Shown here: piece after piece, positions 5,750 through 32,118 of the stretch | How the letters are laid out: each line of letters begins with the position of its first letter | Numbering within the stretch: position 1 is the stretch's first letter | Origin: an uncultured euryarchaeote | GTDB lineage: Archaea > Nanohalarchaeota > Nanosalinia > Nanosalinales > Nanosalinaceae | DNA length: 37,506 nucleotides | Assembly: GCA_937132175.1 (NCBI GenBank) | Contig: CAKZNU010000049.1 | Location: 1 to 37,506, forward strand | Reading direction: 5' to 3' | Position numbers and translations under genes: made by a program | The notes under the pieces: model-generated | Told to the model about the DNA's origin: nothing | The model's input: the letters and a program-made list of their open reading frames with translations, nothing else | The model's database searches: none

Positions 5750-7384
5750 TTATCCTTCTGTGTCCTGTATAAATCTTCGAAGCTCCAGCATGCTTTTTCT
5801 TCTCAGGTCCTCTCTGTAGCTTCGGTTTTCCATGATTCCTTCTATGTGATCCGTAAGGAGCTCGGAGCTCAGTATCTCGGGGACGCTGACGTAGGTTGCT
5901 CCTTTATCCATAAGTCTCTGTGCCTCTTTTACATCTTCTGCACGTAGTATGGTGTCTGCGTCTGTCTCAAGCTCCAGAACAGTGTCTGATACCTTCGTTA
6001 TAGGGGCTGTTGATATGATCAGCTCTGCCTTGCGGTATCCTGCGTTCTCCCATGTTTCGTGATCCAGTACGTCCCCGTATACAAAGTTTTCTTCCTTTTC
6101 CTCGAGGTCTGTGATCTTTTCGGGATCGTTGTCTATCACCACGAAGTCTTCGTTTTCATCCTTCAGCTTCTGGACGATTCTTTCTCCCTGGGTGTCGTAT
6201 CCCAGCACGATGACATGATCACTCGGCCTTTCCTGCCTGAGTTTTTCCGAGATCTTCTGCGGGAAAGACGGTATATGGTCATACGGAGAAAGCAGGTTGT
6301 AGATCCTGTTTCCATGCTTTGCCGTGTACGAAGAGATCATCATTGAAACCGTTGCAGTAATGATAGTCGCTTGGAAAACCGCATCACCGATCAGATTGGA
6401 GAGATAGGCCTGGATTGTAATTATTAACGCGAACTCAGAAACCTGGTCGATGCTGAAACCGGTCAGGTATGCAGTCCTCTTGTTCTGGCCCAGAGCCACC
6501 AGAGACGTGATAACTGCGAAAGGCTTCATTAGAACTGTCAGCAGAAGCATCAACCCGGAAAGAACTAGAACACGTGGTGAAGGAAGGCTTAGTAAGGCTC
6601 CGAGAGACACGAAGAATACGGCGGAGAAGAAATCCTTCAGGGAGCCTGTAGTGTCCAGTATCTCCATGTTATGTGGGTACTTGGAAACTGCCAGACCTGC
6701 CGAAAAGCTTCCGATAGCCAGAGAGATACGAAAGTATTCGGTCAGGCTCAGGAAACCGATTAATACCGTTATAGAGACCAGCATAAGAAGTTCACGCGAG
6801 TTCTCAGTAACTCCGGCCATGTAGCCAAGCAGGTACTTCCTGAAGAGCAAGGCCAAAGCTAGGAGTCCGAAACCGTGTGCAAGACTTACTGAGACTGCCT
6901 CTAGAGTGTAACTGGATGCACCAAGAAGCATAAGGGAGACTACAGCTATCAAGTCCTGACTTAGGTGTAGAGATTCAGCTAGACGGCCGTGAGCAAGCCT
7001 TAGATCCACCTCCTTCTCCAGCAGATCTAATCCAACGAGTGTAGAGCTTAGAGCGGTTACGAGCACGAAGACCAGAGACTCAAAGCCATTTAATCCCAGG
7101 AGTAAAGATAGCCCAAGCGATAGTGCTGAAACAGATGTGATCTGTATCAAGGCTGTCCTTAAGCCATCCCCTGCTACTGTCCTGAGCCTCTCAGGATCCA
7201 TTTTAACTCCGAATACGAATACAAGGAAGGATAACCCGATCCGGGTGAAGCTTATCATTTCTTCTGCCGGGAAGAAGTTTCCAACGACCACTCCAGCAAC
7301 TATGTAGGCTGGAAGCGCAGGATGTGAGAACCTGTTAAACAGGAACAGGATCACTGAGGATGCTGTGAAGACCATAGTCAACAC
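5750..7384 (-). CDS. Kef-type (CPA2) cation:proton antiporter with C-terminal KTN/RCK domain (possible ATC start at 7402)
   Basis: Many TM helices, LSQDL, DFFSAVFFVSLG, QVSEFALI and a C-terminal HVIVLGYD...VVIDNDP...VYGD domain. Confidence 0.9.
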   Translation of the reverse strand: MLTMVFTASSVILFLFNRFSHPALPAYIVAGVVVGNFFPAEEMISFTRIGLSFLVFVFGVKMDPERLRTVAGDGLRTALIQITSVSALSLGLSLLLGLNGFESLVFVLVTALSSTLVGLDLLEKEVDLRLAHGRLAESLHLSQDLIAVVSLMLLGASSYTLEAVSVSLAHGFGLLALALLFRKYLLGYMAGVTENSRELLMLVSITVLIGFLSLTEYFRISLAIGSFSAGLAVSKYPHNMEILDTTGSLKDFFSAVFFVSLGALLSLPSPRVLVLSGLMLLLTVLMKPFAVITSLVALGQNKRTAYLTGFSIDQVSEFALIITIQAYLSNLIGDAVFQATIITATVSMMISSYTAKHGNRIYNLLSPYDHIPSFPQKISEKLRQERPSDHVIVLGYDTQGERIVQKLKDENEDFVVIDNDPEKITDLEEKEENFVYGDVLDHETWENAGYRKAELIISTAPITKVSDTVLELETDADTILRAEDVKEAQRLMDKGATYVSVPEILSSELLTDHIEGIMENRSYREDLRRKSMLELRRFIQDTEG

Positions 7385-7389
7385 GTTGA

Positions 7390-9039
7390 TCAGCTCTGAG
7401 ATTCTTCATCACCTCTTATTTTATCCAGCTCGGAATCTACCTCCTCAGTGAACAGTCCATGGTCCTCTAGATAAAGCTCTATGTACTCTGCGATCCTATC
7501 CGCTGCCAGTATGTTTTCCATTATTACGTAGTCCGCTCCAACATCATAGAGTTCTGTTGCGTCCTCAAGTGACTGTGCTTTGACCATCCTCACAGCCTCT
7601 TCAGCCTCCTCTAACAGCTTGAGATTCAGGCTTTTTTCATCCGACAGGCTGATTACGAAAGCAGCTTCCTGCAGGTTTGCTCCTTCCCTGATTTCACCGT
7701 GCTTGAAATCGCCATAGATATATTCGTACGGTGATTCTCCCAGTAACTCTGTATTTTCAGGATCCTTGTCTATCACAAGCACATCGTATTCCCTGTGAAG
7801 TTTCTCACAGATTTTCTCCGCTATCCTGTCGTATCCGATGACTACTGCATGGTTTTCAAGTCGGTTGATCTCTATGTCTTTCTTTTCCTCTGACTCCAGC
7901 CACTGAAGGAGATGCTCGACTTTTTGGTAAATTTCCTTGTTGTAGTTGATTAGGTAGGTTGATAGGCCTATCGTCAGCAGAGCCATCAGGCTGATGTATC
8001 CCAGTATGTCGTTCCCGACATAACCTTGCTGGACTGCTAGAGCACCTACAACCAGTGAAAACTCGCTGACCTGTGTCATGTTGATGCTTGCTATGAAGGA
8101 TGTACGTGGGGTGAACTTCATCCTGTCGATAAGGTAGAACATGATCAGGAAGTTTCCAATCATCAGTATACCGGATGCCATAACTGCCTCAACCCAGTAA
8201 GCCTGTAAGTTGTCTATGGAAAGCGTTAGGCCAAGCGTTGAGAAAAATATTACCATGAAGAAATCTGTTAGCGGCCGGATACGTTCCTTCAACTCTTCTC
8301 TATAAGGTATCTGGCCTAGCCCAAGTCCTGCTAGGAAAGCCCCTACCTCGACCGAAAGACCGAGATACCGTGCTAGAGAGATGAAAAGGAACGCCCATGC
8401 GATACCGTGAACAAAAAATGCGTGTTTGCTGTCTGCAACTTTTCCGAATACTTCTTCGAGGACGTAGCGTGATGAGAGAAGGGACAAAGCCGCAACCAGG
8501 GCTATGAGCCCGATTATCTTGATTAAAGTTCCGGGAATCTGGTTTGGCTGGGTCAATGTACCTGATCCTATGAGTGCCACTATCAGGATTAGATAGATGT
8601 CCTGTAAGACGAGCACTCCGACATCCAGTTTTCCTGGTAGCGTCTTCAATTCATCTTTTTCGGTCAGAATCTTTACTATAACAGGGGTAGCACCGAAAAC
8701 TGTACACAGCGCTATTATGCTGGTTTCAAAGAGTTCAAATCCAAGAACATAAGGTACTACAAACGCGAGCCCGGTCTGTAAGACTGTCTGACCGACAGCT
8801 ACTATGGATATAGGCTTTAAAATCTCTTTAATATCCTCTAAGTTCATTTCAATTCCTACAAGGAATAAAAGAAACCCCAGACCTAGCTCAGACATCAAAG
8901 TAAGGGTCTGGGTCTCTCCGACTATATCAAGGAGTGTTGGTCCGAGAACGAGACCTGTTATGAGATAGGCCAAGAGCACAGGTTGCTTTAACTTCCTCGC
9001 TATGACAGCCAAGATGGTAGCTGTCACAATTATCAGCAT
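7390..9039 (-). CDS. Kef-type (CPA2) cation:proton antiporter with C-terminal KTN/RCK domain (possible ATC start at 9072)
   Basis: ARKLKQP, SELGLGFLLFLVGIE, VLVLQD, GAFLAG, QVSEFSLV and HAVVIGYD...GADYVI. Confidence 0.92.
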   Translation of the reverse strand: MLIIVTATILAVIARKLKQPVLLAYLITGLVLGPTLLDIVGETQTLTLMSELGLGFLLFLVGIEMNLEDIKEILKPISIVAVGQTVLQTGLAFVVPYVLGFELFETSIIALCTVFGATPVIVKILTEKDELKTLPGKLDVGVLVLQDIYLILIVALIGSGTLTQPNQIPGTLIKIIGLIALVAALSLLSSRYVLEEVFGKVADSKHAFFVHGIAWAFLFISLARYLGLSVEVGAFLAGLGLGQIPYREELKERIRPLTDFFMVIFFSTLGLTLSIDNLQAYWVEAVMASGILMIGNFLIMFYLIDRMKFTPRTSFIASINMTQVSEFSLVVGALAVQQGYVGNDILGYISLMALLTIGLSTYLINYNKEIYQKVEHLLQWLESEEKKDIEINRLENHAVVIGYDRIAEKICEKLHREYDVLVIDKDPENTELLGESPYEYIYGDFKHGEIREGANLQEAAFVISLSDEKSLNLKLLEEAEEAVRMVKAQSLEDATELYDVGADYVIMENILAADRIAEYIELYLEDHGLFTEEVDSELDKIRGDEESQS

Positions 9040-11327: not shown

Positions 11328-11516
11328 CTATCTTACCTTTATTGCGTATCTTCCTGGTGTCGTGATTTCAAGTCTGTCCGCTATCTCCGAGTCCTCTACA
11401 TCGTAAACTACTGCTATACCGCTCCAGTTCGATCTTAGATCGTTGTTCTTGTCTATAGGACATTCCTGTGCGTCCTCTACCAACCTGTGACATTCAGAGC
11501 ATGCTTTCTCTGTCAT
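11328..11516 (-). CDS. spt4: Transcription elongation factor Spt4 (RpoE'')
   Basis: MTEKACSECHRLV...CP...NWSG...SEIADRL...PGRYAIKVR; the ATG overlaps the rpoE' stop (ATGA). Confidence 0.93.
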   Translation of the reverse strand: MTEKACSECHRLVEDAQECPIDKNNDLRSNWSGIAVVYDVEDSEIADRLEITTPGRYAIKVR

Positions 11517-12085
11517 TCTTCTTCCTCCTCCTGTTCTTCTTCCATTTCCTCCTCGTACTGTTCTATCCAGCATCTCTTTCCGAGGCCTGGCTGCCTTGTC
11601 GTCAGGTTTACCTTGTTGGAGTCATCGTTTCCGAGGCTTACAGCTATCATCCTGGAAGTGACTACGTCCCCTATCTCAAGCGCTTTGTCCCCTTCCTCGG
11701 ATACAAGCATGTCGTTTTCCTCATCTAGGTTAACGTATTCATCCATAACCTGTGAGACGTGACAGAGTGCGTCCAGAGGACCTATACGTATGAAGGCTCC
11801 GAAGCTGGTGATATCGACTACCTCCCCCTTCACCACTTCCTGGAGCTCAGGCTCGTAGACGATTGCGGAAAACTCTACGTCGTAATGTATTCCTGCATCC
11901 TCTGGCTGTATCTCTCCGCCTTCTATGCTTTTTACTTCTTCGACAGCCAGGATTACTCCCATGTCCTCAACTATCTCTCCTTCAACGTTGAGGGTGAGAG
12001 AGGACATTACACTTTCCTCGACCTCTCCTCCGAGATCCTCCGGCTGTACTCTTATCGAGTCTTCCATCTGGAGCCTTTTGTACAT
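11513..12085 (-). CDS. rpoE1: DNA-directed RNA polymerase subunit E' (Rpo7)
   Basis: PELQEVVKGEV, FGAFIRIGPLDALCHVSQVMD and LTTRQPGLGK; Glu-rich tail. Confidence 0.96.
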   Translation of the reverse strand: MYKRLQMEDSIRVQPEDLGGEVEESVMSSLTLNVEGEIVEDMGVILAVEEVKSIEGGEIQPEDAGIHYDVEFSAIVYEPELQEVVKGEVVDITSFGAFIRIGPLDALCHVSQVMDEYVNLDEENDMLVSEEGDKALEIGDVVTSRMIAVSLGNDDSNKVNLTTRQPGLGKRCWIEQYEEEMEEEQEEEEE

Positions 12086-12161: not shown

Positions 12162-12542
12162 TCAGTGTCTCAGGCTGTCCCTGTTTCTGACCTCTAGATG
12201 GTTTCCTCCACGCACTATTATGACCTCTGCGTCTTCATCCAGTAGTCTCTCCTTGAGCTCTCTGTCGTTGGTTCCTACCACGAACTCATCACATATCTCT
12301 ACCAGAAGGTCGTCTACCTCTCCTTCTCCCTCGGTCTCCAGAACCTCTATGTTTTTCGTCTCCAGAAGCTTCTCGACGAGATCAACGTATCTCCCCTCCT
12401 CTATGCTTTTGGCCTCCTGAACTGCATCCTCCAGGGTGTAGACCTTGCTTTCCGGGTAGAGACGTTCTATCTCCTCGAAGATGTCGAAGCCCAGCTGGAA
12501 CGGAGCCACCAGGAAATTAGTATCCAACATTATCTTATCCAT
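12162..12542 (-). CDS. PIN-domain protein (Fcf1/Utp24-like)
   Basis: IMLDTNFL, VDDLL and VGTNDRELKERL; conserved position upstream of rpoE'. Confidence 0.88.
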   Translation of the reverse strand: MDKIMLDTNFLVAPFQLGFDIFEEIERLYPESKVYTLEDAVQEAKSIEEGRYVDLVEKLLETKNIEVLETEGEGEVDDLLVEICDEFVVGTNDRELKERLLDEDAEVIIVRGGNHLEVRNRDSLRH

Positions 12543-12594: not shown

Positions 12595-13620
12595 ATGGAG
12601 TTTGATTACAGGGCTTCCAGCCTCAAGAAAGTGGAAATTGATGAAGACACAGAGATAGTATACAGCGGCCACAAGCCCCAGGTAGGTGATGTCGTTGCGG
12701 TAAGAATTACTCACGTCAATGAGGATTACAGCGAGCTTGATCTCGAGGGCGGAGAGCTTGTCCAACTCCAGCAAGGCGATGTAGTCCTCGGGGTCCTGGG
12801 AAACCGTTCCGGAGTCAAAGGTTACATAGGAGAGGTTCCTGATTCTCTGGATAAAGGTGGCTCCATAGAGTTTCTGGGGTCTGGAGGCATCTTCGGAAGA
12901 TATATTTCAGGGGCTAGAGAGCTCGATCAGCCCTGTGAGGCAGAGCTTCTGGGATACGTAAGTCACAACAGCACTATTCTTAATACACGTGACTTTGGAA
13001 CCGATCACGCCAGAGAGGTTGAGGCCGACGCAGACCTTGTAGCAGTGGTTGCCTCAAGGATGGATGCCGGCAAGACCACTCTCGCAAGTAAACTGATCGA
13101 GGGTCTCAGCCAGCAGTACGATATTGCGTCACTGAAGCTTACAGGCTCTGCACGTGAGAGGGATCGTCTCCAGATGCTTGAAGCTGGCTCGAAGAGATCC
13201 TATGACTTTGTGGATGCCGGTCTGCCGTCCACGGTACACGACACGGATCTGGTGGTATCCGCTGCGAGAGGACTTGTCAATGAGGTTTGGGACGATGACC
13301 TGGACTTTGTTGTCGTTGAGTTTGGTGCGGGTCTAGTGTCTAATTACGGCGTTAAAGAGGCTCTCAGAAACCTTGACATAAGAGATCAGATATTCGGCGT
13401 CTCCGTGGTCTCACTCGATGTTATGGGTGCTCACGGACTGAAAGATGTACTGAATGATATGGATTATGAGGTTGATTTTGTCTCCGGCCCGATAACAGAT
13501 ACTACGGTTGGCAGGGAAACCGTCGAGAACCAGGTTGGAGTTCCGGCTCTGAATGCATTTCAGGAGGAACACGTTGATGAAGCCGTAGAAATTATTTCCC
13601 GAAGCTTTGAGGAAGACTGA
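12595..13620 (+). CDS. DUF1611-like P-loop NTPase domain protein
   Basis: N-terminal GDVV...LGNR...GGIFG region, P-loop VASRMDAGKTT, KLTG, DFVDAGLPST and VVVEFGAGL. Family assignment is from motif recall. Confidence 0.7.
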   Translation: MEFDYRASSLKKVEIDEDTEIVYSGHKPQVGDVVAVRITHVNEDYSELDLEGGELVQLQQGDVVLGVLGNRSGVKGYIGEVPDSLDKGGSIEFLGSGGIFGRYISGARELDQPCEAELLGYVSHNSTILNTRDFGTDHAREVEADADLVAVVASRMDAGKTTLASKLIEGLSQQYDIASLKLTGSARERDRLQMLEAGSKRSYDFVDAGLPSTVHDTDLVVSAARGLVNEVWDDDLDFVVVEFGAGLVSNYGVKEALRNLDIRDQIFGVSVVSLDVMGAHGLKDVLNDMDYEVDFVSGPITDTTVGRETVENQVGVPALNAFQEEHVDEAVEIISRSFEED

Positions 13621-13624
13621 AACC

Positions 13625-14515
13625 CTAGTTTGACATCTCGTCCAGGGCTCTGGCCTTCATGTACTCCATAAATCTCTCCGCCATGTTACGTTCCAGAACC
13701 TCTTCGGTTCCCTCCACTCCGGGACATGCATTGATCTCTCCGATGTAGAAGCCTTCTTCCTCACTTTCGTCCTCGATAATATCTATTCCTGCGATCTCAA
13801 GACCGGAAAGTCTAGCCGCACCTACAGCAGCCTCTTTCATTTCCTCTGATGGATCCACTCTCTGGCGGTTTCCGCCTGTTGAGATATTGGATCTAAACTC
13901 CTCCTCGTTTCCACCTATCCTCTTGTATGAGTACGTCTCGTCTCCGACCACGATTACCCGGATATCCTCTCCAGGATTCTCTATGAACTCCTGCAGACAT
14001 ATATCCTGCTCGAAGAGTGTAAGAGTATCTGTGATAGGTCCAATATCGGACTTCGAGTCTGCCTTCATAACTCCTTTGCCTCCGTAGCCCGATATAATCT
14101 TTATCACTGCCGGATATCCCAGCATCTCTCCAGCTCTCTCTGTCTCTGAGGTCGAGAGTGTATAGGTTGAACGTGGAACAGGTACGCCTCCTTCCGCAAG
14201 CACCTTCATCATATGGAACTTGTTTGATGCGATCGCAAGCGAATCCGACTCCATCTGTGTGTAGACGTCGTTGTCCTTCAGGACTCCGGGTATATGTTCT
14301 CCGTACATGAGATCGCTTCCCAGTAGACGCAGATAGACTGCGTCGAACTCCGTGAGATCTGTGTTTGAGTACATCAGCTTCGTTCCCTCTTCGGTATATA
14401 CGGTTCTTACACCTTCAAGGGGCACTCCAAGCACTTTATCGAAGTGTTCTTTGCCTTTCTCGATAAAGTGATGGTGCTGTGCTGATTTCTTGCCGTAGAT
14501 AACCGCACATTTCAT
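13625..14515 (-). CDS. RimK/LysX-family ATP-grasp ligase, catalytically intact
   Basis: NK...VPVP, YPAVIKIISGYGGKGV, QEFI, DIRVIVVG, FRSNISTGG, GIDII and EINACPG; start set at MKCAVIYG. Confidence 0.92.
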   Translation of the reverse strand: MKCAVIYGKKSAQHHHFIEKGKEHFDKVLGVPLEGVRTVYTEEGTKLMYSNTDLTEFDAVYLRLLGSDLMYGEHIPGVLKDNDVYTQMESDSLAIASNKFHMMKVLAEGGVPVPRSTYTLSTSETERAGEMLGYPAVIKIISGYGGKGVMKADSKSDIGPITDTLTLFEQDICLQEFIENPGEDIRVIVVGDETYSYKRIGGNEEEFRSNISTGGNRQRVDPSEEMKEAAVGAARLSGLEIAGIDIIEDESEEEGFYIGEINACPGVEGTEEVLERNMAERFMEYMKARALDEMSN

Positions 14516-14553
14516 CTGAAGCCACCTTTCTGATCTCTGTATTTTCTTATCAC
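14512..14553 (-). CDS. Putative 13-aa mini-ORF (MIRKYRDQKGGFR) bridging the two ATP-grasp genes
   Basis: The GTG overlaps the upstream stop (GTGA), the TGA overlaps the downstream start (ATGA), and a GGTGA SD lies 6 nt before the GTG. Confidence 0.4.
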   Translation of the reverse strand: MIRKYRDQKGGFR

Positions 14554-15383
14554 AGGTCTTCACCGTCCTTGAGGTATCCGGCTACCCGCCCGTACACGTT
14601 TTTTCCACTCTCCTGTTCAAACATGTCCAGACGCGGATCTGTGTCCATATCGATGATTCTGTCTCCCTGCAGTCTTACACGGCAGATGCTGGTTCCTATT
14701 GATTCAACAGCTTTCTGAACCGTCTGTTTCTGGGTGTCTGATACCCCGTAGTATGAGAATCCTGTTTCTCCGCTTTCTTTCCATGGAGGGTTATCCGCCT
14801 TCAGGCTTATTATCTTTCCATCTATGTACAGAAGCTCGAAGACTTCTTTTTCTTCATCATGTTCTTGGATCATCAGGAAGTCTTTCCCGTGCTCAGTTAC
14901 CTCTGCGAAGCTTTTGAGCTCGTCGAACCCATCAAAAATCTTGGTCTCCACCAGCTGGAGGTCGGAGTACTTCCTGGCCAGTACAGGAAACTCTATGTTT
15001 TTCTGTAGCTCTGTCATACCTTTCTCCGTTGAGATACTTGCCTGTGGCGGTATTGTACATCCTTTGTCTGCCAGCACCTTCGCCAGGTAAGGCTTCTTTG
15101 TCAGTATAAATATAGAGGATGTATCTATGTTGCATCTCACGTCCTTAACGCTGAGTACCTCCAGTAGAACCCGGGTGTAGTTGAAGGCTTTGGGCTCGGG
15201 CTTCAGGTAGACTGCGTCCCAGTTTTCGATTTTCTTCCCGTTCACCAGAACCTCTGAGATATCTCCTGTTTCTGCGTCTATCATGACATCTGCCAGGGAA
15301 CTTGAGTCTACCTCGTCGAAGTATTCCCTGAAGCTTTCAGCCTCTTTCTCGTAGTCACTGGCCAGTATCAGAAGTTTGCTCAT
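14550..15383 (-). CDS. Degenerate RimK-like ATP-grasp protein
   Basis: Colinear with its neighbour (DAVYL, K..L...L...G..IP, FPVL, MIQE) but lacks the Gly-rich loop, FRSN and ExN motifs. Start at MSKLL behind a GGTGAT SD. Confidence 0.75.
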   Translation of the reverse strand: MSKLLILASDYEKEAESFREYFDEVDSSSLADVMIDAETGDISEVLVNGKKIENWDAVYLKPEPKAFNYTRVLLEVLSVKDVRCNIDTSSIFILTKKPYLAKVLADKGCTIPPQASISTEKGMTELQKNIEFPVLARKYSDLQLVETKIFDGFDELKSFAEVTEHGKDFLMIQEHDEEKEVFELLYIDGKIISLKADNPPWKESGETGFSYYGVSDTQKQTVQKAVESIGTSICRVRLQGDRIIDMDTDPRLDMFEQESGKNVYGRVAGYLKDGEDL

Positions 15384-16932
15384 CTTTTTTATCACCTTCT
15401 TGTTCTCGCTCGCTCTCTGGTTTCCAGAGTCTCTCGACGTTTTCCTCACGCTTCCATCTGTCCAGGTAGTCCTGTAGCTGGTCCGGAAGCACATTCTTCA
15501 GTATTCGGCCCTGCCGCAGGATTCTACGTAGCTGTAGCTCCATGTTCTTGTTCAACTGGTCGTAGAAAGTTTCGTCTGCATAGAGCAGGCCTTTGCTGAT
15601 TCTCCAGTAAGCGGTCGTATCTTCTGGAGCCAGCACAAGGTATCCCCGGGTTCTTCCCTCGAACTCTCTCATCGCCTCGAGCATCTCTCCGCTGTCCGCG
15701 TAGTAAACCCCTCCTGACACCGTATCTGCGGACGGATCGACTATGAGTAACTCGTCGCCCTCTACCCCTACACACAGGCTGTAGTGGGCTGTATCCGCCT
15801 GCGGGAACAGAACAGGCTTCGCAAAGTTAGGTATTATGAGTGCTCCATCATTAAACCATACCTTGAACTCGTCCGCCAGGTCTGTGATCTTGTCGTACTC
15901 TACGTACTCTGCATGTACCTCTCCGTCCGTAAGTCCCTCTATGGCTCCGATCAGGTCATCCGGCATCGTACCTTGGCCGACCTCGGTGCCGCATATCTCT
16001 CCTATCTCGTCCTGTCCGTACCTGTATCCGAAGATGCTGAGAGCCATCTCCGCTGAGGCTGGTCCACAGTACGAAGGATCCTGTGCTATGAAGTACTCCT
16101 TCATGTCTTCCAGAGTCTCCACGTCGTTCTGTGTTTTCTTGAACTTCAGATCTGCGTTCATGACATCGGAGTTCTTTGTTATCATCGTGTAGCCTCCGTC
16201 CGTCTCTATCTCGGTGGAAAAGAGGTCTATACCTCTTATCTCTCCGCTTTCATCCTCCAGGTACACCTTCTCTCCAGGTCTTACGAGCCTGGTGTTTTTC
16301 AGATAGAAGCCTGCAGCAAGGTTCTTGAAAATATCTTTGAATCCCCAGAAGATTAATGCCGCTCCAAGCCCTACAACTGCGTATGAGGAAGCCGTGATAG
16401 CCTTAGAGATGAAGGTGTTTCCTACTCCGAGACTGTCGAGTACTATCTGTATGACCAGCAGGTAGAGGAATCCCTGTGCGCCGATTCTGAGCCCGTTGGT
16501 GGCATTTTTGGATATTCCCGCATCTCTGAGGTAGTCTCTTACGCCAAGTCCCTTCAGCACCTTTCCTCCAACCTTTGCAGTCAGGTTTACAAGTATAAGC
16601 CCTAGTAGCCCTACCAGCACGGCCGAGGCAATCCTTGGTATGCTCTGGGCCAGCGTAGACGTTAGCGTTGCGGTCAAACCTGTATTCAGGTATACAAGTC
16701 CTGCAAGTATTACTACAGAGTCTAAAGCGTACTTGAGGTATCTTACGGTGTCGTAACGCCTCTCTAGCTCTTTCTTCGTCAGGTCGTCTCCCCTTATCCA
16801 GATCTTTCTCACACTGAAGGAAGTTATCTTGGCTGCTGCGTGACCCGCTACAAGCATTACAATAGTTATGAAGGTTCTCAGGAGTGCATCCTGTTCAGCA
16901 AGCAGGCTGGATAGAAGAGTGTCAGTTGTCAT
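15355..16932 (-). CDS. MscS-family channel fused to a C39/phytochelatin-synthase-like cysteine peptidase domain
   Basis: Multiple TM helices, KDIFKNLAAG and the MscS beta-domain (PGEKV...GEIRGIDLFSTEI...KNS), followed by QDPSYCGPAS, AHYSLCVG and LLIVDP. Confidence 0.85.
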   Translation of the reverse strand: MTTDTLLSSLLAEQDALLRTFITIVMLVAGHAAAKITSFSVRKIWIRGDDLTKKELERRYDTVRYLKYALDSVVILAGLVYLNTGLTATLTSTLAQSIPRIASAVLVGLLGLILVNLTAKVGGKVLKGLGVRDYLRDAGISKNATNGLRIGAQGFLYLLVIQIVLDSLGVGNTFISKAITASSYAVVGLGAALIFWGFKDIFKNLAAGFYLKNTRLVRPGEKVYLEDESGEIRGIDLFSTEIETDGGYTMITKNSDVMNADLKFKKTQNDVETLEDMKEYFIAQDPSYCGPASAEMALSIFGYRYGQDEIGEICGTEVGQGTMPDDLIGAIEGLTDGEVHAEYVEYDKITDLADEFKVWFNDGALIIPNFAKPVLFPQADTAHYSLCVGVEGDELLIVDPSADTVSGGVYYADSGEMLEAMREFEGRTRGYLVLAPEDTTAYWRISKGLLYADETFYDQLNKNMELQLRRILRQGRILKNVLPDQLQDYLDRWKREENVERLWKPESEREQEGDKKDEQTSDTGQ

Positions 16933-16978: not shown

Positions 16979-18166
16979 CTATTTAATTGAGGTTATTTTT
17001 CCATGACCTATCAGTCTCCAGCGTGAACCTATCTGCCGCGATATGGCAAGCCTATCGCCTTCTTCGGCACAGACAGGTATCTTGAGATCAAGCTCTACCG
17101 TGTCTCCTGCCTGGGTTACTACGCCGGCTGACTTTCCGGTTCCGATGTTTACCATCAGGGGTTCATGTTCCTTGATGTTCTCTATCTCTTTCTCGTCTTC
17201 CGCCCCTACCAGCCTATCCATAAGCTCTACGTCAACCTGTAACCTCTCTGAGTTCTCTGGAAGAGTACCTTCATGCCCGATTACGTTTCCCGCAAGCCCA
17301 TCACTCTTCGCCATTGCGGGATCAAGGCTTGTCTCCAGACCTAGAAGCCCTCCTGGCCCTGCTTCATCGACAGTTTCGTCCCCGTGGATGATAGATCTTA
17401 CCTTGGTGCCGACGGTCTCCCACTTGTCCTCCCCGATCTTTCTTCCCGGCTTGATCTCTATCTCGTCTCCAGGTTCTAATGTCCCTTTCACGAGGCTTCC
17501 TCCGATTACCCCGCCGTTTATGTTCTGGGGCTCTGTTCCTGGCCGGTTTATATCGAAGGATCTGGCGGCCAGCATCTTCGGCTTCGAGTCCTCGTCTCTC
17601 TCCGGTGTAGGTACTTCCTGATCTATCGCCTCCAGTAAAGCATCTATGTTTACTTCGTGCTGTGCGGAGACCGGTATCACAGGTGCATCCTCTGCAACCG
17701 TTCCCTCGACAAACTCCTTAATCTGTTCATGGTTTCTCTTGACCTGTTCCTTCTCGACCAGGTCTATCTTGTTCTGTACAATTACTATGTTTTCTATACC
17801 TGTTATATCAAGTGCTGCAAGATGTTCACGTGTCTGTGGCTGAGGACATTTCTCGTCTGCCGCCACCATCAGGATTGCTCCGTCCATGATTGCTGCGCCG
17901 GAGAGTACGTTTGCCATCAGGGTTTCGTGTCCGGGTGCATCCACGAGAGAAACTGATCTCTCCGGTTCGCCTTCGCCATCCACACTGAAACCATCTTCGT
18001 CCCGGTAGTAAGAGATGTCTGCGTAACCCAGCTTTATCGTTATACCTTTTTTTAGCTCTTCGGAGTGTTCATCCGTCCATTTTCCGGAAAGTGCCTTGGT
18101 CAGAGTAGTCTTTCCGTGGTCAACGTGTCCTACCAGACCTATGTTTGCCTCAGGTGTTTCACTCAT
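16979..18166 (-). CDS. eif2g: Translation initiation factor aIF-2 gamma subunit
   Basis: GHVDHGKTT, GITIKLGY, DAPGHE, QPQTREH, NKID, RSFDINRPG and RWRLIG. Confidence 0.98.
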   Translation of the reverse strand: MSETPEANIGLVGHVDHGKTTLTKALSGKWTDEHSEELKKGITIKLGYADISYYRDEDGFSVDGEGEPERSVSLVDAPGHETLMANVLSGAAIMDGAILMVAADEKCPQPQTREHLAALDITGIENIVIVQNKIDLVEKEQVKRNHEQIKEFVEGTVAEDAPVIPVSAQHEVNIDALLEAIDQEVPTPERDEDSKPKMLAARSFDINRPGTEPQNINGGVIGGSLVKGTLEPGDEIEIKPGRKIGEDKWETVGTKVRSIIHGDETVDEAGPGGLLGLETSLDPAMAKSDGLAGNVIGHEGTLPENSERLQVDVELMDRLVGAEDEKEIENIKEHEPLMVNIGTGKSAGVVTQAGDTVELDLKIPVCAEEGDRLAISRQIGSRWRLIGHGKITSIK

Positions 18167-18531
18167 GATTGACTCTCCAGAAGCTCATCTACTTCATCTT
18201 CGCCCTGTTCAACAACCTTTGTGTTAAGCTGTTCCGTCTGGTTTGAGACAGTGTTTCCTCTCACAGACTTTCTCTCACGTATGCCGTTTTCCTTTTCCTT
18301 CACACCGGTACCGGTCTTCAGCAGTTTTTTCTGTCTCTCCGTGCCTTCGATGCTTTCTCTCATCGGGAATCCCTGTCTGTCCGATCCCCCGGTTATCCTC
18401 AGCGTGTATCCCTCTAGCCCTATAATATCTCCGCTGAACTCGTCTCCTATCTTCTTGCCGGTAAGCTGTGGGATTTCCTGTTTCTCCGTCTGTACTGTTT
18501 CGCCATCCTGTTTTCCTATAGTTATTTTCAA
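18163..18531 (-). CDS. rps6e: 30S ribosomal protein S6e (eS6), TTG start
   Basis: GKKIGD, GYTLRITGGSDRQGFPM, RKSVRGN and QLN; AGGTGA SD 6 nt before the TTG. Confidence 0.95.
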   Translation of the reverse strand: MKITIGKQDGETVQTEKQEIPQLTGKKIGDEFSGDIIGLEGYTLRITGGSDRQGFPMRESIEGTERQKKLLKTGTGVKEKENGIRERKSVRGNTVSNQTEQLNTKVVEQGEDEVDELLESQS

Positions 18532-18654: not shown

Positions 18655-20049
18655 GTGAGATTTGCCGTAGTAACCGGAATCCTGGGCAGACTGCTCCAGA
18701 TACTTTCAGGCCTGTTGCTGGTTCCTGTTCCTCTTGCTCTAGCCTATGGAGGCGGTTCCGGCGGTTCAGCCGTTTTTCTCAGTACAGCTTTACTGTCCCT
18801 GGCTGCAGGTACGTTGCTTCAGAGAGCCGGAAAGATAGATGAGCCGTCTCTGTCTGAGTCCGTCTATATCACCGTACTGTCATGGATTCTGGTATCCTCT
18901 CTAGCAGCTATACCTCTCTCCACGGGTCTTTCTCCGGGCAAGGCTCTCTTTGAGGCAGTCTCCGGTCTTACAACTACCGGTATATCTGCGGCCGCTGACC
19001 CCGCTCTTTTCTCTCCTGCGGTACTTTTCTGGAGGTCTCTGATCCAGTGGATCGGAGGTCTTGGCATACTTACCTTTTTCGTAGCTGTCGTAAGAGAGTC
19101 CGGGGCCGTATCCAGAAAGCTCTTTTCCGCCGAGGCACACAAGACTGATCCCGGCAGCATCAGACCCTCCCTGCTCAACTCCGTAAAGTCTCTCTGGAAG
19201 GTCTATGGTTTTTTGACGTCCGTTCTGATCGGGGCTTACGTTGTTGCCGGAATGGGCGTTTTCGATGCGGTTTTGCACTCTCTCACCACTCTCTCCACAG
19301 GAGGGTTCTCAACCGGTTCGATGAGTCTTGGAGCTTACGGTGCCCCGGTTCAGGCAGTCTCCGCCTTCTTTATGCTTCTTGGAGGGATTAACTTCGTGAT
19401 TCTCTACAGGCTTCTCAGGGCTGATACAAGGACGCTTGGCTCAGAGTTCAGGATGTACGTACTTGTATTTGCAGGCGTTTCTGCGCTGGGAGCTCTTTCC
19501 TCCGGCTCTGTCTTGGACTCGATCTTCACCTCCGCTTCCCTGGTGTCTTCGACAGGGTATGCGACGGTCGGGATCGAATCCTTCTCTGCATTCATGCAGC
19601 TTCTTTTCCTCGGTGTTCTGTTCGTTGGAGGTTCAGTGGGCTCGACGGCTGGAGGCCTCAAGATATTCCGTGTCAGGGTGCTTCTGGAGTTACTCCGTAG
19701 CAGGGTCAGGTCCTTCAGTCTCCCAGACTCGGCTCTCAACAAGCCGGTGGTGGACGGCAAGATCGTTGAGTCATCTACACTGAGAACGGTTGCTGCCTTG
19801 CTCTTTTCCTGGCTCGCGGTCTGTTTCGGTACTGCAGCAGTTGTTCTCTCACAGGAGCCTGTGAGTATCCAGCAGGCGCTGTCTCTGGCAGTTTCCTCTG
19901 TCGGGAATATGGGTCCAAGCCTGGCGTCCTCAGAGGCCGTCCTGTCCCTGAGCCCGGTTTCACGCTTCTTCCTGGCGGTAGGAATGATCGCCGGCAGACT
20001 GGAGATGATACCGGTACTGGCAATCTTTAATAGAAAGCTGCTGGAATAA
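18655..20049 (+). CDS. trkH: Trk-type K+ uptake membrane protein TrkH
   Basis: Four pore-loop motifs (SGLTTTG, LSTGGFS, SSTGY, GNMGP) plus QWIGGLGI, GSTAGGLK and GRLE. Confidence 0.95.
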   Translation: MRFAVVTGILGRLLQILSGLLLVPVPLALAYGGGSGGSAVFLSTALLSLAAGTLLQRAGKIDEPSLSESVYITVLSWILVSSLAAIPLSTGLSPGKALFEAVSGLTTTGISAAADPALFSPAVLFWRSLIQWIGGLGILTFFVAVVRESGAVSRKLFSAEAHKTDPGSIRPSLLNSVKSLWKVYGFLTSVLIGAYVVAGMGVFDAVLHSLTTLSTGGFSTGSMSLGAYGAPVQAVSAFFMLLGGINFVILYRLLRADTRTLGSEFRMYVLVFAGVSALGALSSGSVLDSIFTSASLVSSTGYATVGIESFSAFMQLLFLGVLFVGGSVGSTAGGLKIFRVRVLLELLRSRVRSFSLPDSALNKPVVDGKIVESSTLRTVAALLFSWLAVCFGTAAVVLSQEPVSIQQALSLAVSSVGNMGPSLASSEAVLSLSPVSRFFLAVGMIAGRLEMIPVLAIFNRKLLE

Positions 20050-20055
20050 TAGGTT

Positions 20056-20697
20056 ATGTACGTTATCATAGCAGGTATTAACTCGACGTCAGAGAGACTT
20101 GTCCAGAGGCTGGAAAACAGTCATGACGTGGTTGTGATAGATCCTGATGAGGATGAATGCGACAGGCTTTACTCATCCAGCGGAGCTACCGTCATAAACC
20201 GTTCTCCGTCCACTATTGCAGCTTTACAGGATGCAGGAGTGTCTCAGGCTGATATAATTATTGCTGCCGGACGTAACGATAATGAAAACATGGTGGTATG
20301 CAGTCTTGAACGCAAGTTCGGCGTCCCGAAGATAGTTTCACGCGTGGAGGATAACGAATACGTCGAGGCATTTGATCTTATAGATGCTGAAACTGTAAGC
20401 CACAACGATGTGCTTGTGTCCCAGTTTCTCTCTGCCGTCGAGCATCCGTCTGTCATAAAGCTCTCAGATCTGGAAGGCGGTCTAGAGGCTGTGAAGGTAA
20501 AAGTGGGTGAAAAATCCGGACAGAAGGTCTCTTCCCTCGAGGACAGCTCCGGTTTTCCTGACGGTTTTCAGGTGAGTACTGTGCTCCGTGGAGATCAGCA
20601 GATGGGTCGCGAAGCACATCTTCAGAAAGGTGACAGGCTTCTGATGGTTGGGCCTCAGGAGGAGAAGCCTAAGCTCGATAGTTTCTTTTCCTCCTGA
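20056..20697 (+). CDS. trkA: TrkA-family K+ uptake regulatory protein (RCK_N plus RCK_C)
   Basis: YVIIAG, HDVVVID, AGVSQADIIIAA...DNEN and LQKGD; directly follows trkH. Confidence 0.9.
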   Translation: MYVIIAGINSTSERLVQRLENSHDVVVIDPDEDECDRLYSSSGATVINRSPSTIAALQDAGVSQADIIIAAGRNDNENMVVCSLERKFGVPKIVSRVEDNEYVEAFDLIDAETVSHNDVLVSQFLSAVEHPSVIKLSDLEGGLEAVKVKVGEKSGQKVSSLEDSSGFPDGFQVSTVLRGDQQMGREAHLQKGDRLLMVGPQEEKPKLDSFFSS

Positions 20698-22200: not shown

Positions 22201-24297
22201 ATGTCGACAACAATGAAAGGGAAGTCTCTGTTACTGATAGCCTTTCTGGGAGTCGCCCTTCAGCCTGGCCTGGCGCTGGAGTTTCAGTCACCTTCAGATC
22301 AGAAGGTTGCTGACCCGTTCGAGGTAAATGTTACAGGCTCTGATGAGAATCAGGTGAGTGTAACTCTTGAAGGTGAGGATGTTGATTTTTCCTCCACGAG
22401 CGAGGTTGATACCCCGGATGGCTACGGAACCACGGAGTTCGATGTCGGCGGAACTGACAGCGGCGACTACAGCTTAACTGCAGAGGCTGTCAACGACTCA
22501 GGAGATGTAAAGTCCTCTATCGAGAAACAGATATTTGTAGATGCGGAAAAGCCCTCGGTCGAGAGATCGGACGAGTACAGGTACGTGAACGAGGGATCAG
22601 AGATTCAGATGACGGTCTCTGATGACCAGTCAGCTGTCACCGACCTCGAGGCAGAGAGCTTTAGCGTGGATCTTGAGGACGGCACCAGAGACAATGTCTG
22701 TGGGCCTGGAGGCGTCTGTACGGTATCCTTTGATTTTGACAGGGGTGATGCTGCTCAGGGAGACCAGTTTACTGTAAGCGTCGAGTCCTCTGACTTCGTG
22801 GGAAACACCTACTCCGGGGACATATCCTACGTGTATGACTTGGAGTTCGAAGCGGATAAGCCGGAGTTTACAGTTGAAGACGCAGAGGATGGTATCGTAC
22901 AGCTTGACTCCGATGTCGAGGTAGATGTAGAGGTTCAGGACGTTGAGGATGAACAGAGCGATATCAAGGTGAGGTGCCTGGTTGACGGTGAAGAGGTAGA
23001 TACCTCGGGATGGGACGATGAAGAAAGCTTCTCGTGCAGTATTCCGGAGGACGAGGTAAACGATGAAGCCGCTGACATATCGGTTGAGGCCGTAGACAGA
23101 GCAGGAAACACCGTGGAGTCAGATGAGAGGTCAATAAGCTTTGACTCATCGGAACCGGATGTGGAGGAGTTCGAGCTGGTACAGGAGTACAACACGTTTA
23201 GAAGAGATTTTGAAGCAAGATTCGAGGCCGATGATTCTCTTACAGGTATAGATAGGGCCGAGTACTTCTTCGATATAGACACTGATGAGGGAGATGGATA
23301 CGAGGTTCAGGAGGAAGGGGAGTTCAAGGTAGATACCTCCGATATCTCTGGGAACGGCTCCGAGACCGTCTACCTGAGGGTGCAGGATGGCTCCGGAAGG
23401 TGGAGTGAGTATGAGTCAGTCGAGTTCAGATACTTTCCCGAGTCCTCAGAGACCCTGAGAATATCTACACCGCAGGACTTCGAGCTTAGAGCCGGCTCAT
23501 CCACAGATTATAACATTGAGGTAGAGAACACGGGTGAGTTACTCGTCGAGTCTGTTGTGGTTACTGTGTCTTCGAGACTCTTCGAGAAGTCCGTAACTCT
23601 TGAGGAACTGGAAGGTGGAAACTCTGAGACCGTCTCTGTAAGCCTTTCTCCGAATGAATCTCAGACAGGACGCTACGAAGTCTCTGTATCTTCGCAAAGT
23701 CCCGATGAAGAAGTTACCGGTGAGTTAACTGTGAGAGCATCCGAGGATCAACGCAGTCGTGTACGGGAACTGCTGGAGAACCTTTCCAGTGCAAACGCCA
23801 GCATCTCTGGGAACCTCTCTGATATTTCCCGGAAAGCCTCCGAGGAGGAGCTGGAGAGGACCTCCTCCGCAGTCCAGACGTTCCAGTCCGAGATCAGGAG
23901 GATAGAGGCTGCGGTCGAGAACGGATCGTACTACGAAGCTTTGCCTGCGCTTGAGACTGCGGAACAGAGGAAGCAAGAGGCTCTGGAATCTCTTCGGGAC
24001 GTGGAAAACAGTGTTGAGGCCAGAGAGACTAAATCAACCATACTTAAGGTGCTTCTCGCAGGGGTACTGATAACCGCAGTAATCCTGTATGCTCACAGGA
24101 GGGACCAGAAATCGGGAATTCCTGACTTAGATGAAGTCAGGAACAGACTTCAGGATACTGATTCAGCCTCTGTTTCCGAGAGGGTTCGGTCCCTTGATAT
24201 GCCGGATGTATCTTTACCTGACTCCCTGCCGGAAATCTCTTTGCCTGACTTCAAGCGTAGCAAAGACGACGAGGATGAGTTCCAGGGACTCAAGTAG
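22201..24297 (+). CDS. Secreted, membrane-anchored acidic surface protein with Ig-like repeats
   Basis: Signal peptide; repeated D.(A/V)GN...D...P beta-sandwich units; a CARDB/NEW3-like VENTGE segment; helical stalk; C-terminal TM helix and cytoplasmic tail; several NxS/T sequons. Confidence 0.8.
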   Translation: MSTTMKGKSLLLIAFLGVALQPGLALEFQSPSDQKVADPFEVNVTGSDENQVSVTLEGEDVDFSSTSEVDTPDGYGTTEFDVGGTDSGDYSLTAEAVNDSGDVKSSIEKQIFVDAEKPSVERSDEYRYVNEGSEIQMTVSDDQSAVTDLEAESFSVDLEDGTRDNVCGPGGVCTVSFDFDRGDAAQGDQFTVSVESSDFVGNTYSGDISYVYDLEFEADKPEFTVEDAEDGIVQLDSDVEVDVEVQDVEDEQSDIKVRCLVDGEEVDTSGWDDEESFSCSIPEDEVNDEAADISVEAVDRAGNTVESDERSISFDSSEPDVEEFELVQEYNTFRRDFEARFEADDSLTGIDRAEYFFDIDTDEGDGYEVQEEGEFKVDTSDISGNGSETVYLRVQDGSGRWSEYESVEFRYFPESSETLRISTPQDFELRAGSSTDYNIEVENTGELLVESVVVTVSSRLFEKSVTLEELEGGNSETVSVSLSPNESQTGRYEVSVSSQSPDEEVTGELTVRASEDQRSRVRELLENLSSANASISGNLSDISRKASEEELERTSSAVQTFQSEIRRIEAAVENGSYYEALPALETAEQRKQEALESLRDVENSVEARETKSTILKVLLAGVLITAVILYAHRRDQKSGIPDLDEVRNRLQDTDSASVSERVRSLDMPDVSLPDSLPEISLPDFKRSKDDEDEFQGLK

Positions 24298-27313: not shown

Positions 27314-27314
27314 A

Positions 27315-29134: not shown

Positions 29135-29170
29135 AACGTCATAAAGGTGTTTTCAGGTTTAAATCCCTGC

Positions 29171-30420: not shown

Positions 30421-30506
30421 AAGGTAGGATGGCGGCGTGTTGTTTATGTTGGTTGGGTTCACTTGTTTTCGACAGGCTTAAGTATCTCTTCAGGTTATAC
30501 AAGGGT

Positions 30507-32114: not shown

Positions 32115-32118
32115 TATT

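What the first reader, a model, noticed from the sequence alone, without database searches (positions are those of the whole stretch)
12595..16932. Candidate new system: peptide ligase pair plus channel-tethered peptidase plus DUF1611-like NTPase
Seen: an overlapping operon MscS-peptidase > degenerate ATP-grasp > 13-aa ORF > intact ATP-grasp, met tail-to-tail (4-nt gap) by a DUF1611-like gene. No LysW carrier, F420 or methanopterin genes are nearby. Established: RimK-family enzymes add Glu to proteins or make poly-alpha-Glu; papain-fold C39/phytochelatin-synthase domains cleave or transpeptidate peptides; an MscS homologue (MscCG) exports glutamate; one DUF1611 branch (DgcN) acts in D-glutamate catabolism. 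Inference: a write-erase-release module that builds a glutamyl peptide, polymer or protein tag and processes it at the mouth of a tension-gated pore, for osmotic buffering or host interaction. I do not know a description of this combination, but I could not search.
Basis: partly seen in the sequence, partly recalled or inferred. Interest (0 to 1): 0.85.

Follow-up and report, generated by a model that had tools for sequence, protein, structure and literature searches.

The report
Channel-anchored glutamate ligase machine
Nearly all tiny salt-loving symbiotic archaea of this group carry the same three genes, a pressure-valve-type membrane protein fused to a cysteine peptidase plus a likely dead and an intact glutamate-ligase copy, which are predicted to dock into one membrane machine that likely builds and trims short glutamate peptides, in this genome probably from a capped glutamate made by the fourth gene.

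Summary
The window is nanohaloarchaeal. The core is a trio: an MscS-like/papain-fold fusion, a RimK paralogue lacking catalytic residues, and an intact RimK-family ligase. It is adjacent in 51 of 56 same-order genomes and recurs in a minority of Aenigmatarchaeota and Iainarchaeota. Corrections: the 13-aa ORF is an unconserved spacer relay, and the DUF1611-like gene is one occupant (16 of 57 genomes) of a variable slot otherwise holding GCS2, TTL-like or second RimK ligases and MATCAP or AstE hydrolases. New here: (1) a complex prediction docks the fusion's conserved tail helix on both ligase chains (0.89, best control 0.02); (2) the peptidase Cys-His pair is intact in 23 of 23 loci with DUF or GCS2 and in 0 of 23 without, but only 2-4 independent events support this (p 0.5) and one further locus breaks it; (3) the DUF is nearest to an arg-operon family that a preprint predicts to make N-acyl-glutamate. 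Best reading: a membrane-tethered glutamyl-peptide ligase/peptidase machine; product and osmotic role untested. Not found in print in my searches; this scan noted the module twice before in other genomes.

The parts
15355..16932 (-). MscS-like/papain-fold fusion, 525 aa: about five membrane helices (to residue ~213), MscS beta domain (~215-265), papain-fold domain with Cys289-His383-Asp399 in place of the usual MscS C-terminal domain, then a conserved tail with a predicted ligase-docking helix (459-479)
   Evidence: Pfam; AlphaFold model pLDDT 87.7; Foldseek top hits Nostoc phytochelatin synthase Alr0975 E 3e-7 and PeiR E 3.5e-7, then MscS and C39 domains; conservation; complex
14550..15383 (-). 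RimK-like ATP-grasp paralogue, 277 aa, likely catalytically dead; predicted structural partner of the active ligase and of the fusion tail
   Evidence: HH alignment to the intact ligase 99.9%; best PDB hits Pseudomonas RimK; glycine loop and the counterparts of D184, R186, R208-S209-N210, D245, N262 not kept in 51 homologues; invariant G230 lies in the predicted interface
14512..14553 (-). 13-codon ORF bridging the two ligase genes; likely a translational relay, not a conserved peptide
   Evidence: only 5 of 51 loci have a spacer of 18-52 nt; each holds a bridging mini-ORF of unrelated sequence, 9-18 codons
13625..14515 (-). Intact RimK-family ATP-grasp ligase (RimK1), 296 aa
   Evidence: TIGR00768 over cut-off; best PDB hits E. 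coli and Pseudomonas RimK, E 2e-43; R63, K99, K139, glycine loop, D184, R186, R208, S209, N210, D245, E260, N262 invariant in 49 of 49
12595..13620 (+). DUF1611/DgcN/BioD-like two-domain P-loop protein, 341 aa; accessory-slot occupant, likely an N-acyl-glutamate-forming enzyme
   Evidence: model pLDDT 95.8; VIA Z 18.0 TM0796, 16.8 BioD, 16.0 DgcN for the C-terminal domain; GKT, K181, G184, D190, E242 invariant in 55; convergent on RimK1 in 16 of 16 genomes that have it; nearest bacterial clade lies in arg operons
16979..18166 (-). eIF2-gamma gene, left flank: the trio follows it 46 nt downstream on the same strand
   Evidence: Pfam; same neighbour in the relatives' maps
12162..12542 (-). PIN-domain gene, right flank of the insertion; eIF2-gamma and PIN are neighbours in two same-order genomes lacking the module

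Best explanation
The three co-transcribed genes are a conserved unit whose products are predicted to assemble at the inner face of the membrane, where the intact RimK-family ligase likely adds glutamate to an N-capped starter that the convergent P-loop enzyme likely supplies, and the channel-fused papain-fold domain likely trims or transfers the product. Shown: gene order, conservation, residues kept and lost, slot contents. Predicted: the fusion's tail helix (459-479) binds a pair of the active and the dead ligase. Inferred: RimK1 uses ATP to join glutamate to a free carboxyl; the dead copy is a docking or regulatory subunit; the slot holds interchangeable starter-makers (P-loop N-acyl-glutamate synthase here, GCS2 gamma-glutamyl ligase elsewhere) and hydrolases (AstE/AspA, MATCAP, M20, formylglutamate amidohydrolase); the Cys-His pair decays once the starter-maker is lost. 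Least certain: the product is a short N-capped oligo-glutamate used as a K+ counter-ion or store, and its turnover or release is tied to membrane tension. Odds by step: membrane-tethered glutamyl ligase complex about 0.8; small-molecule N-capped product about 0.45; osmotic role about 0.3.
For: Trio adjacent in 51 of 56 same-order relatives and present with the same order in Aenigmatarchaeota and Iainarchaeota loci at other chromosomal sites. Overlapping or relay-bridged junctions. Complex score 0.89 (runs 0.89, 0.87, 0.89), best of 3 controls 0.02, 0.00 when RimK1 was replaced; runs share at least 95% of contacts, partner pLDDT at least 79; the mark was reached by 116 of 157 solved and 2 of 215 mismatched pairs, counts that hold only roughly for this three-chain job. 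Interface residues K462, R473, G475 (53 of 53) and G230 (51 of 51) are invariant, and helix conservation is the same with or without the catalytic pair (0.79 vs 0.77) while the papain domain drops (0.75 vs 0.60). RimK1 keeps counterparts of R64, R189, N262, which contact poly-glutamate in Pseudomonas RimK (PMC10092738 section 3.3; alignment). The named slot genes are amide ligases or N-acyl-amino-acid/glutamyl hydrolases. Cys-His intact in 23 of 23 loci with DUF or GCS2, 0 of 23 without; DUF and GCS2 never share a slot. 18 of 80 metagenome loci of the DUF family lie in arg operons and 50 of 80 next to a glutamate-carboxypeptidase-like M20 gene; a preprint predicts N-succinylglutamate synthase for what appears to be the arg-operon family (10.1101/2024.10.14.618325 Appendix 2).
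Against: No activity, product or expression was measured. The Cys-His/slot pattern rests on 4 changes on the tree and 2 independent well-supported pairs, p 0.5 (42 of 46 loci); locus L101 keeps the pair with only a TTL-like gene, and neither DUF nor this GCS2 type was found in its genome or in two Iainarchaeota-type genomes with an intact pair. RimK1 has invariant Y7, G8, H14 where Pseudomonas RimK has S7, R8, S14 (matched by numbering only), so the acceptor, and possibly the donor, may differ from glutamate chains. The N-acyl-glutamate role is itself an untested prediction, and the archaeal protein is only about 31% identical to the arg-operon clade. In 9 of 201 Nanobdellota genomes the fusion occurs with no dead ligase beside it. 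The trio occurs in AR10 (a groundwater organism, recalled), which is against a purely high-salt role.
Confidence: 0.45

Rival explanations
1. Same membrane complex, but it tags proteins: RimK1 (and the TTL-like or second RimK ligases) add glutamate tails to protein C-termini, and the papain domain, MATCAP and AstE remove them, as RimK/RimB do for RpsF.
For: RimK modifies a protein tail and RimB removes it (PMC11957791 abstract). The flanking eS6 ends in Glu-Glu in 25 of 38 relatives and RpoE' in 22 of 38, against 11 of 472 long ORFs in this genome. TTL-like and MATCAP families act on tubulin tails in eukaryotes (Pfam names; function recalled).
Against: eS6 of this genome and of AR10 (trio present) does not end in Glu, while G045, which lacks the module, keeps an acidic tail. 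Outside Nanohaloarchaeota the trio is not beside these genes. GCS2, the DUF, AstE, M20 and formylglutamate amidohydrolase are small-molecule enzyme families.
Confidence: 0.25
2. The membrane part is no longer a solute channel but an anchor or tension sensor that switches the docked ligase and peptidase; the product is a signal or envelope component, as may be the case for RloABC.
For: The MscS C-terminal domain is replaced; the helix before the beta domain carries bulky Tyr/Trp/Phe at several positions; the genome has a separate 280-aa MscS; the fusion is kept after loss of the catalytic pair. RloB is an inactive transglutaminase membrane protein acting with an ATP-grasp in hypo-osmotic tolerance (PMC12239564).
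Against: The last membrane helices and beta domain are about as conserved as the papain domain (0.60-0.63) and match E. coli MscS (E 6e-11). This rival is compatible with the best reading on chemistry.
Confidence: 0.15
3. A glutathione/phytochelatin-like thiol pathway: GCS2 makes gamma-Glu-Cys, the ATP-grasp extends it and the phytochelatin-synthase-like domain polymerises or trims it.
For: Top fold match is Nostoc phytochelatin synthase; GCS2 fills the slot in 9 of 56 relatives, always with an intact Cys-His pair.
Against: No GCS2 found in this genome or its complete congener G001; the fold match is tied with PeiR and close to C39 domains; RimK1 scores far better as RimK than as glutathione synthetase.
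Confidence: 0.07
4. The P-loop gene is a passenger with no link to the trio.
For: Opposite strand; found in only 16 of 57 genomes; not part of the complex test.
Against: Convergent on RimK1 in 16 of 16 nanohaloarchaeal genomes and in the same cluster in Aenigmatarchaeota loci at another chromosomal site; the archaeal copies form one clade (SH-aLRT 95); never found with a decayed Cys-His pair.
Confidence: 0.08

Closest known systems
RimK-RimB (rimABK) of Pseudomonas; E. coli RimK (PMC11957791, PMC10092738)
   Same: RimK-family glutamate ligase with the same catalytic residues, paired with a peptidase; RimK also makes free poly-alpha-glutamate
   Different: RimK is a soluble homotetramer acting on RpsF with a retropepsin partner; here an active/dead pair is predicted to dock on a membrane protein, the peptidase is papain-fold, and archaea have no RpsF (recalled)
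RloABC operon of Pseudomonas aeruginosa (PMC12239564)
   Same: membrane protein with an inactive cysteine-enzyme domain, cytoplasmic ATP-grasp and glutamate-peptide peptidase in one operon, tied to hypo-osmotic tolerance
   Different: RloA is a secreted retropepsin, RloB is a transglutaminase-domain protein and not MscS-like; no dead ligase copy or swappable slot is described in the parts I read
[quoted passage not shown]
   Same: DgcN-like P-loop fold; the nearest bacterial relatives of the window's protein sit in arg operons as that paper describes
   Different: here no arginine pathway (argC over cut-off in 0 of 5 genomes); the gene faces a RimK-like ligase; identity with the paper's family inferred from context, not aligned
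MscS family (E. coli MscS; MscCG recalled)
   Same: pore-side helices and beta domain
   Different: C-terminal alpha/beta domain replaced by a papain-fold domain and a docking helix; no such fusion among solved structures searched
Prokaryotic phytochelatin synthase Alr0975 and C39 peptidases
   Same: papain fold with Cys-His-Asp
   Different: membrane-fused, about 20% identity, catalytic pair lost in half of the nanohaloarchaeal loci
ATP-grasp plus peptidase 'peptide tagging' operons (Iyer et al. 2009) and N-acyl-dipeptide synthesis such as NAAG or NAGGN (all recalled; the 2009 paper was not held)
   Same: ligase and hydrolase genes clustered; N-capped amino acid extended by an ATP-grasp ligase
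   Different: I could not check whether the 2009 paper or its supplement lists this archaeal cluster; most DPANN genomes postdate it

Membership tests
RimK family alpha-L-glutamate ligase (RimK1) | TIGR00768 score over cut-off | tested here: met
   145.4 vs 143.4
RimK family alpha-L-glutamate ligase (RimK1) | ATP, metal and terminal-glutamate residues | tested here: met
   invariant in 49 of 49; aligned to RimK structures; roles from PMC10092738 and partly recalled
RimK family alpha-L-glutamate ligase (RimK1) | poly-glutamate acceptor groove (S7, R8, S14, S68) | tested here: inconclusive
   Y7, G8, H14, D/E68 here; N-terminal match by numbering only
RimK family alpha-L-glutamate ligase (RimK1) | glutamate ligase activity | not testable with these tools
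   needs an assay
RimK-RimB system | retropepsin RimB partner in the operon | tested here: not met
   no such gene among the recurrent clusters of the fetched loci; not searched genome-wide
LysX/ArgX | LysW carrier and pathway; equivalog score | tested here: not met
   LysW 0 of 5, argC over cut-off 0 of 5; 111 vs 275.6 bits
CofF / MptN | F420 pathway; equivalog scores | tested here: not met
   CofE 0 of 5; 58 vs 300 and 134 vs 350 bits; methanopterin genes not searched separately
MscS | TM helices and beta domain | tested here: met
   PF05552 and PF00924 over stretch or whole cut-off at low scores; PDB MscS E 6e-11
MscS | C-terminal alpha/beta domain closing the cage | tested here: not met
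   papain-fold domain follows the beta domain directly
MscS | heptamer and tension gating | not testable with these tools
   oligomer not modelled
Phytochelatin synthase / C39 | papain fold with Cys-His-Asp | tested here: met
   C289, H383, D399 in the window; pair lost in 23 of 46 relatives
Phytochelatin synthase / C39 | assignment to phytochelatin synthase rather than C39 or PeiR | tested here: inconclusive
   Foldseek E 3.2e-7 vs 3.5e-7 vs 1.6e-5; Pfam gives C39_2, not PF05023, for the window protein
DUF1611 / DgcN | Pfam PF07755 hit | tested here: not met
   only MobB E 0.002; relatives at about 30% identity carry PF07755
DUF1611 / DgcN | DUF1611-type P-loop fold | tested here: met
   Z 18.0 (TM0796, rmsd 2.7, 179 aligned), 16.2 (2obn), 16.0 (DgcN), BioD 16.8; N-terminal domain barely tested
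Arg-operon N-acylglutamate synthase (predicted family) | sequence kinship to arg-operon members | tested here: met
   HH 100%, 32% over 330 columns to L177; tree
Arg-operon N-acylglutamate synthase (predicted family) | residence in an arg operon; activity | tested here: not met
   no arg genes at the locus, argC not found over cut-off; activity untested for the whole family
RloABC | secreted retropepsin and transglutaminase-domain membrane protein | tested here: not met
   different domains
RiPP / graspetide cluster | conserved precursor peptide | tested here: not met
   mini-ORF in 5 of 51 loci, unrelated sequences

The most novel reading that the evidence does not exclude
A mechanosensitive enzyme complex: the MscS-type membrane ring carries a peptidase and docks an active/dead ligase pair, so that membrane tension directly switches between making, cutting and releasing an N-capped oligo-glutamate, a solute or messenger so far unknown in DPANN symbionts and kept as a core function in genomes of about 1 Mb.
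Probability: 0.15. Interest if true: 0.9.

Novelty: new variant of a known kind. Interest (0 to 1): 0.64.

Why it matters
Nanohaloarchaea have shed most biosynthesis, yet 51 of 56 sampled relatives keep this trio inside a translation gene string, so it likely does something central. If the model holds, it is the first MscS-family protein acting as a scaffold for enzymes, the first active/dead RimK pair, and a route to a new glutamate metabolite in DPANN archaea. It also gives a second, arginine-independent context for an untested P-loop N-acyl-glutamate synthase family, with specific residues to mutate.

Tried and rejected
13-aa ORF as precursor or carrier peptide: rejected. LysW, F420, methanopterin ligase roles: rejected. 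GTG start at 14563: not supported by homologues. Self-glutamylation of the module's own tails: ends not conserved. A strict two-way rule between the Cys-His pair and DUF/GCS2: broken by L101 and by Iainarchaeota-type genomes; only the one-way form stands, and it is not statistically supported. Promoter and terminator scan: no excess over shuffles, and the scan is bacterial. Sequencing runs: no RNA holder listed, which says nothing on expression. Single-sequence PDB search of the P-loop protein gave nothing. Taxonomy of the roughly 45 full-length 50%-identity representatives could not be looked up, so a bacterial copy of the fusion is not excluded; the Atlas cluster is 100% Archaea among recorded members. 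Whether arg-operon contigs lack argA/argJ could not be checked here. Literature: searches listed no paper whose title or abstract start describes this locus (0 papers for Nanohaloarchaeota+RimK and for MscS+fused+C39 peptidase+archaea); subscription papers and supplements were not seen.
Full report
Source and observation. The window is contig C49 of a 0.79-Mb, 86% complete genome whose proteins match Nanohaloarchaeota records. The block lies between eIF2-gamma and the PIN/RpoE' genes. In G040 and G045, same-order genomes without the module, eIF2-gamma and PIN are neighbours.

The core is a trio. Of 56 same-order relatives, 51 have a strong match to the fusion and 52 to each ligase; none of 4 genomes from outside the order has a full match. 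The three genes are adjacent and in the same order in 51 of 56; G051 has both ligases at a contig end; G030, G037, G040 and G045 have none. A scan of species genomes gave 74 loci, titled as Nanohaloarchaeota, Aenigmatarchaeota, Iainarchaeota, Woesearchaeota or unnamed archaea, plus two with other titles. By phylum sample the full fusion was found in 4 of 121 genomes of the Aenigmatarchaeota group, 9 of 101 of the AR10 group and 9 of 201 of the Woesearchaeota group. In the AR10 group all 9 have the dead ligase next to the fusion and 8 also RimK1 (the ninth ends at a contig edge); in the Woesearchaeota group none of the 9 has the dead ligase beside it and one faces a RimK-like gene. Outside Nanohaloarchaeota the trio lies at other chromosomal sites, so its linkage is not just inherited synteny.

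The fourth gene is a slot occupant. The P-loop gene was found in 16 of 57 genomes with a single query and with a profile, each time convergent on RimK1. In other genomes the same slot holds a GCS2 ligase (9 of 56, never with the P-loop gene), one to three TTL/YheCD-like ATP-grasps (25 loci), a second RimK-like gene, MATCAP-family peptidases and AstE/AspA hydrolases. Aenigmatarchaeota loci carry TTL-like plus P-loop genes; AR10-group loci carry a second RimK-like gene, M20, M29, formylglutamate amidohydrolase or GCS2-like genes. The 13-aa ORF is not a part: 46 of 51 junctions are -20 to +6 nt, and the five longer spacers each hold a bridging mini-ORF of unrelated sequence, four of them in one genus. 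It most likely keeps translation coupled.

The proteins. RimK1 passes the RimK-family cut-off, fails the LysX, CofF and MptN cut-offs, and keeps all catalytic positions in 49 of 49 homologues. It keeps counterparts of R64, R189 and N262, which contact the glutamate chain in Pseudomonas RimK, but by numbering has Y7, G8 and H14 for S7, R8 and S14 (PMC10092738, sections 3.2 and 3.3 read): the acceptor probably differs. The paralogue aligns over 273 columns (99.9%) but lacks the glycine loop and most catalytic residues. The fusion model (pLDDT 87.7, pTM 0.58) has about five membrane helices, the MscS beta domain and, in place of the MscS C-terminal domain, a papain fold closest to Nostoc phytochelatin synthase and PeiR (tied), then C39 domains. 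The P-loop model (pLDDT 95.8) matches DUF1611 proteins, BioD and DgcN in its C-terminal domain.

A predicted complex. RimK1, the dead ligase and fusion residues 265-508 were folded together with alignments. The fusion part scored 0.89 (0.89, 0.87, 0.89) against a best control of 0.02, and 0.00 when RimK1 was replaced; runs shared at least 95% of contacts and partner pLDDT was at least 79. The mark was reached by 116 of 157 solved complexes and 2 of 215 mismatched pairs, counts that hold only roughly for a three-chain job with my own alignments. The contact is helix 459-479 on residues 75-103 and 227-231 of the dead ligase and 89-111 and 228-238 of RimK1. K462, R473, G475 and G230 were invariant in alignments made before the prediction. 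RimK homo-oligomers are solved, but only the fusion part was scored, and my PDB searches showed no solved relative of this tail. This supports binding; it does not show it.

The catalytic pair tracks the slot. Cys289 and His383 are both kept in 23 of 46 nanohaloarchaeal loci with a full domain; all 23 have the P-loop gene (14) or GCS2 (9), and none of the other 23 has either. On a tree of 42 of these (four lacked eIF2-gamma in the fetched stretch) each trait changes 4 times; 2 independent pairs on well-supported branches agree, p 0.5. Of ten further nanohaloarchaeal loci with a visible slot, seven have the pair with P-loop or GCS2, two lack the pair and both genes, and one (L101) keeps the pair with a TTL-like gene only. 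AR10-group genomes keep the pair without these genes. So the pair is ancestral, and its loss was seen only where both genes are missing: a lead, not a result. The docking helix is equally conserved in both groups, which explains why a dead fusion is kept.

What the P-loop protein may do. Of 80 metagenome loci of the family, 18 lie in arginine operons, mostly between argG and argC, and 50 follow an M20 gene resembling glutamate carboxypeptidase; plasmid copies lie in other small-molecule clusters. The archaeal copies form one clade, nearer to the arg-operon clade by score and by midpoint-rooted tree (52 rows, a third of the non-arg loci sampled). GapMind 2026 (passages and Appendix 2 read) predicts N-succinylglutamate synthase for an arg-operon DgcN-like family, untested; I infer from context that it is this family. 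Nanohaloarchaea showed no argC over cut-off (0 of 5), so N-acyl-glutamate would serve another end; a capped starter for the facing ligase is the simplest, and GCS2 would supply a gamma-glutamyl starter instead. AstE/AspA, M20 and formylglutamate amidohydrolase in the slot fit N-acyl-glutamate chemistry.

Mechanism and rivals. Most likely (0.45 for the whole chain, about 0.8 for a membrane-tethered glutamyl ligase complex): starter made by the slot enzyme, extended by RimK1 in the docked pair, trimmed or transferred by the papain domain or by slot hydrolases, giving a short capped oligo-glutamate. An osmotic use is plausible (about 0.3) by analogy with RloABC (PMC12239564, abstract and discussion read) but is unshown. 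Protein-tail glutamylation is the main rival (0.25): eS6 and RpoE' often end in Glu-Glu, but not eS6 of this genome or of AR10. A non-conducting anchor or sensor (0.15), a thiol pathway (0.07) and a passenger P-loop gene (0.08) follow.

Novelty. Ligase-plus-peptidase glutamate systems are known (RimK-RimB, PMC11957791 abstract; RloABC; Iyer et al. 2009, recalled, not held). Ten literature searches listed nothing on this locus or on an MscS-papain fusion; PMC4431377 and PMC12363236 were seen as passages only, PMC10375531 as a listing; supplements were not seen. Two earlier notes of this scan describe the same module in other genomes; my counts were made independently before that look-up. I class it as a new variant of a known kind, interest 0.64.

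Noticed in passing
window 18655-20697 (+) and 5750-9039 (-): TrkH/TrkA potassium uptake genes and two Kef-type (cation/H+ exchanger plus TrkA_N) genes flank the ribosomal gene string that holds the module; similar genes flank many relatives, and a Kef-type gene lies near two AR10-group loci (L146, L151). Fits K+/glutamate balance but may be synteny only.
   Followed up: no
G000 contigs C129 (1112 nt) and C161 (1100 nt): Two TTL-like ATP-grasp ORFs very like those of G010/G026, and a MATCAP gene, on tiny contigs; possibly bin contamination.
   Followed up: partly
L177-L196: The P-loop family sits in arginine operons, mostly between argG and argC, in 18 of 80 metagenome loci; a role is already predicted in a preprint.
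   Followed up: yes
L197-L253: A second bacterial clade of the P-loop family follows an unnamed 217-aa gene and an M20 peptidase (50 of 80 loci); function unexplained.
   Followed up: partly
window 18163-18531 and 11513-12085; relatives L031-L084: eS6 ends in Glu-Glu in 25 of 38 and RpoE' in 22 of 38 relatives, against 11 of 472 long ORFs in this genome.
   Followed up: partly
L063, L065, L066, L069, L071, L079: A second, stand-alone MscS gene lies divergently just upstream of eS6 in six loci of families f3 and f4.
   Followed up: no
L066 (G042) and L078 (G054): An extra close copy of RimK1 lies beside MATCAP and AstE genes; a coiled-coil protein also occupies the slot in G042 and G054.
   Followed up: no
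L139, L145, L167: In three loci without the ligase pair the fusion converges on an archaeal D-aminoacyl-tRNA deacylase gene; L145 also has a LysX/ArgX-type cluster 7 kb away.
   Followed up: no
L126, L139: Record titles (Colwellia, Methanosarcinales) disagree with the gene content, which looks DPANN; probably mislabelled bins.
   Followed up: no
window 22201-24297, 30429-34626, 26579-29917: Ig-like surface protein, two long proteins without Pfam match, and a MoxR AAA / DUF58 / DUF7502 cluster.
   Followed up: no
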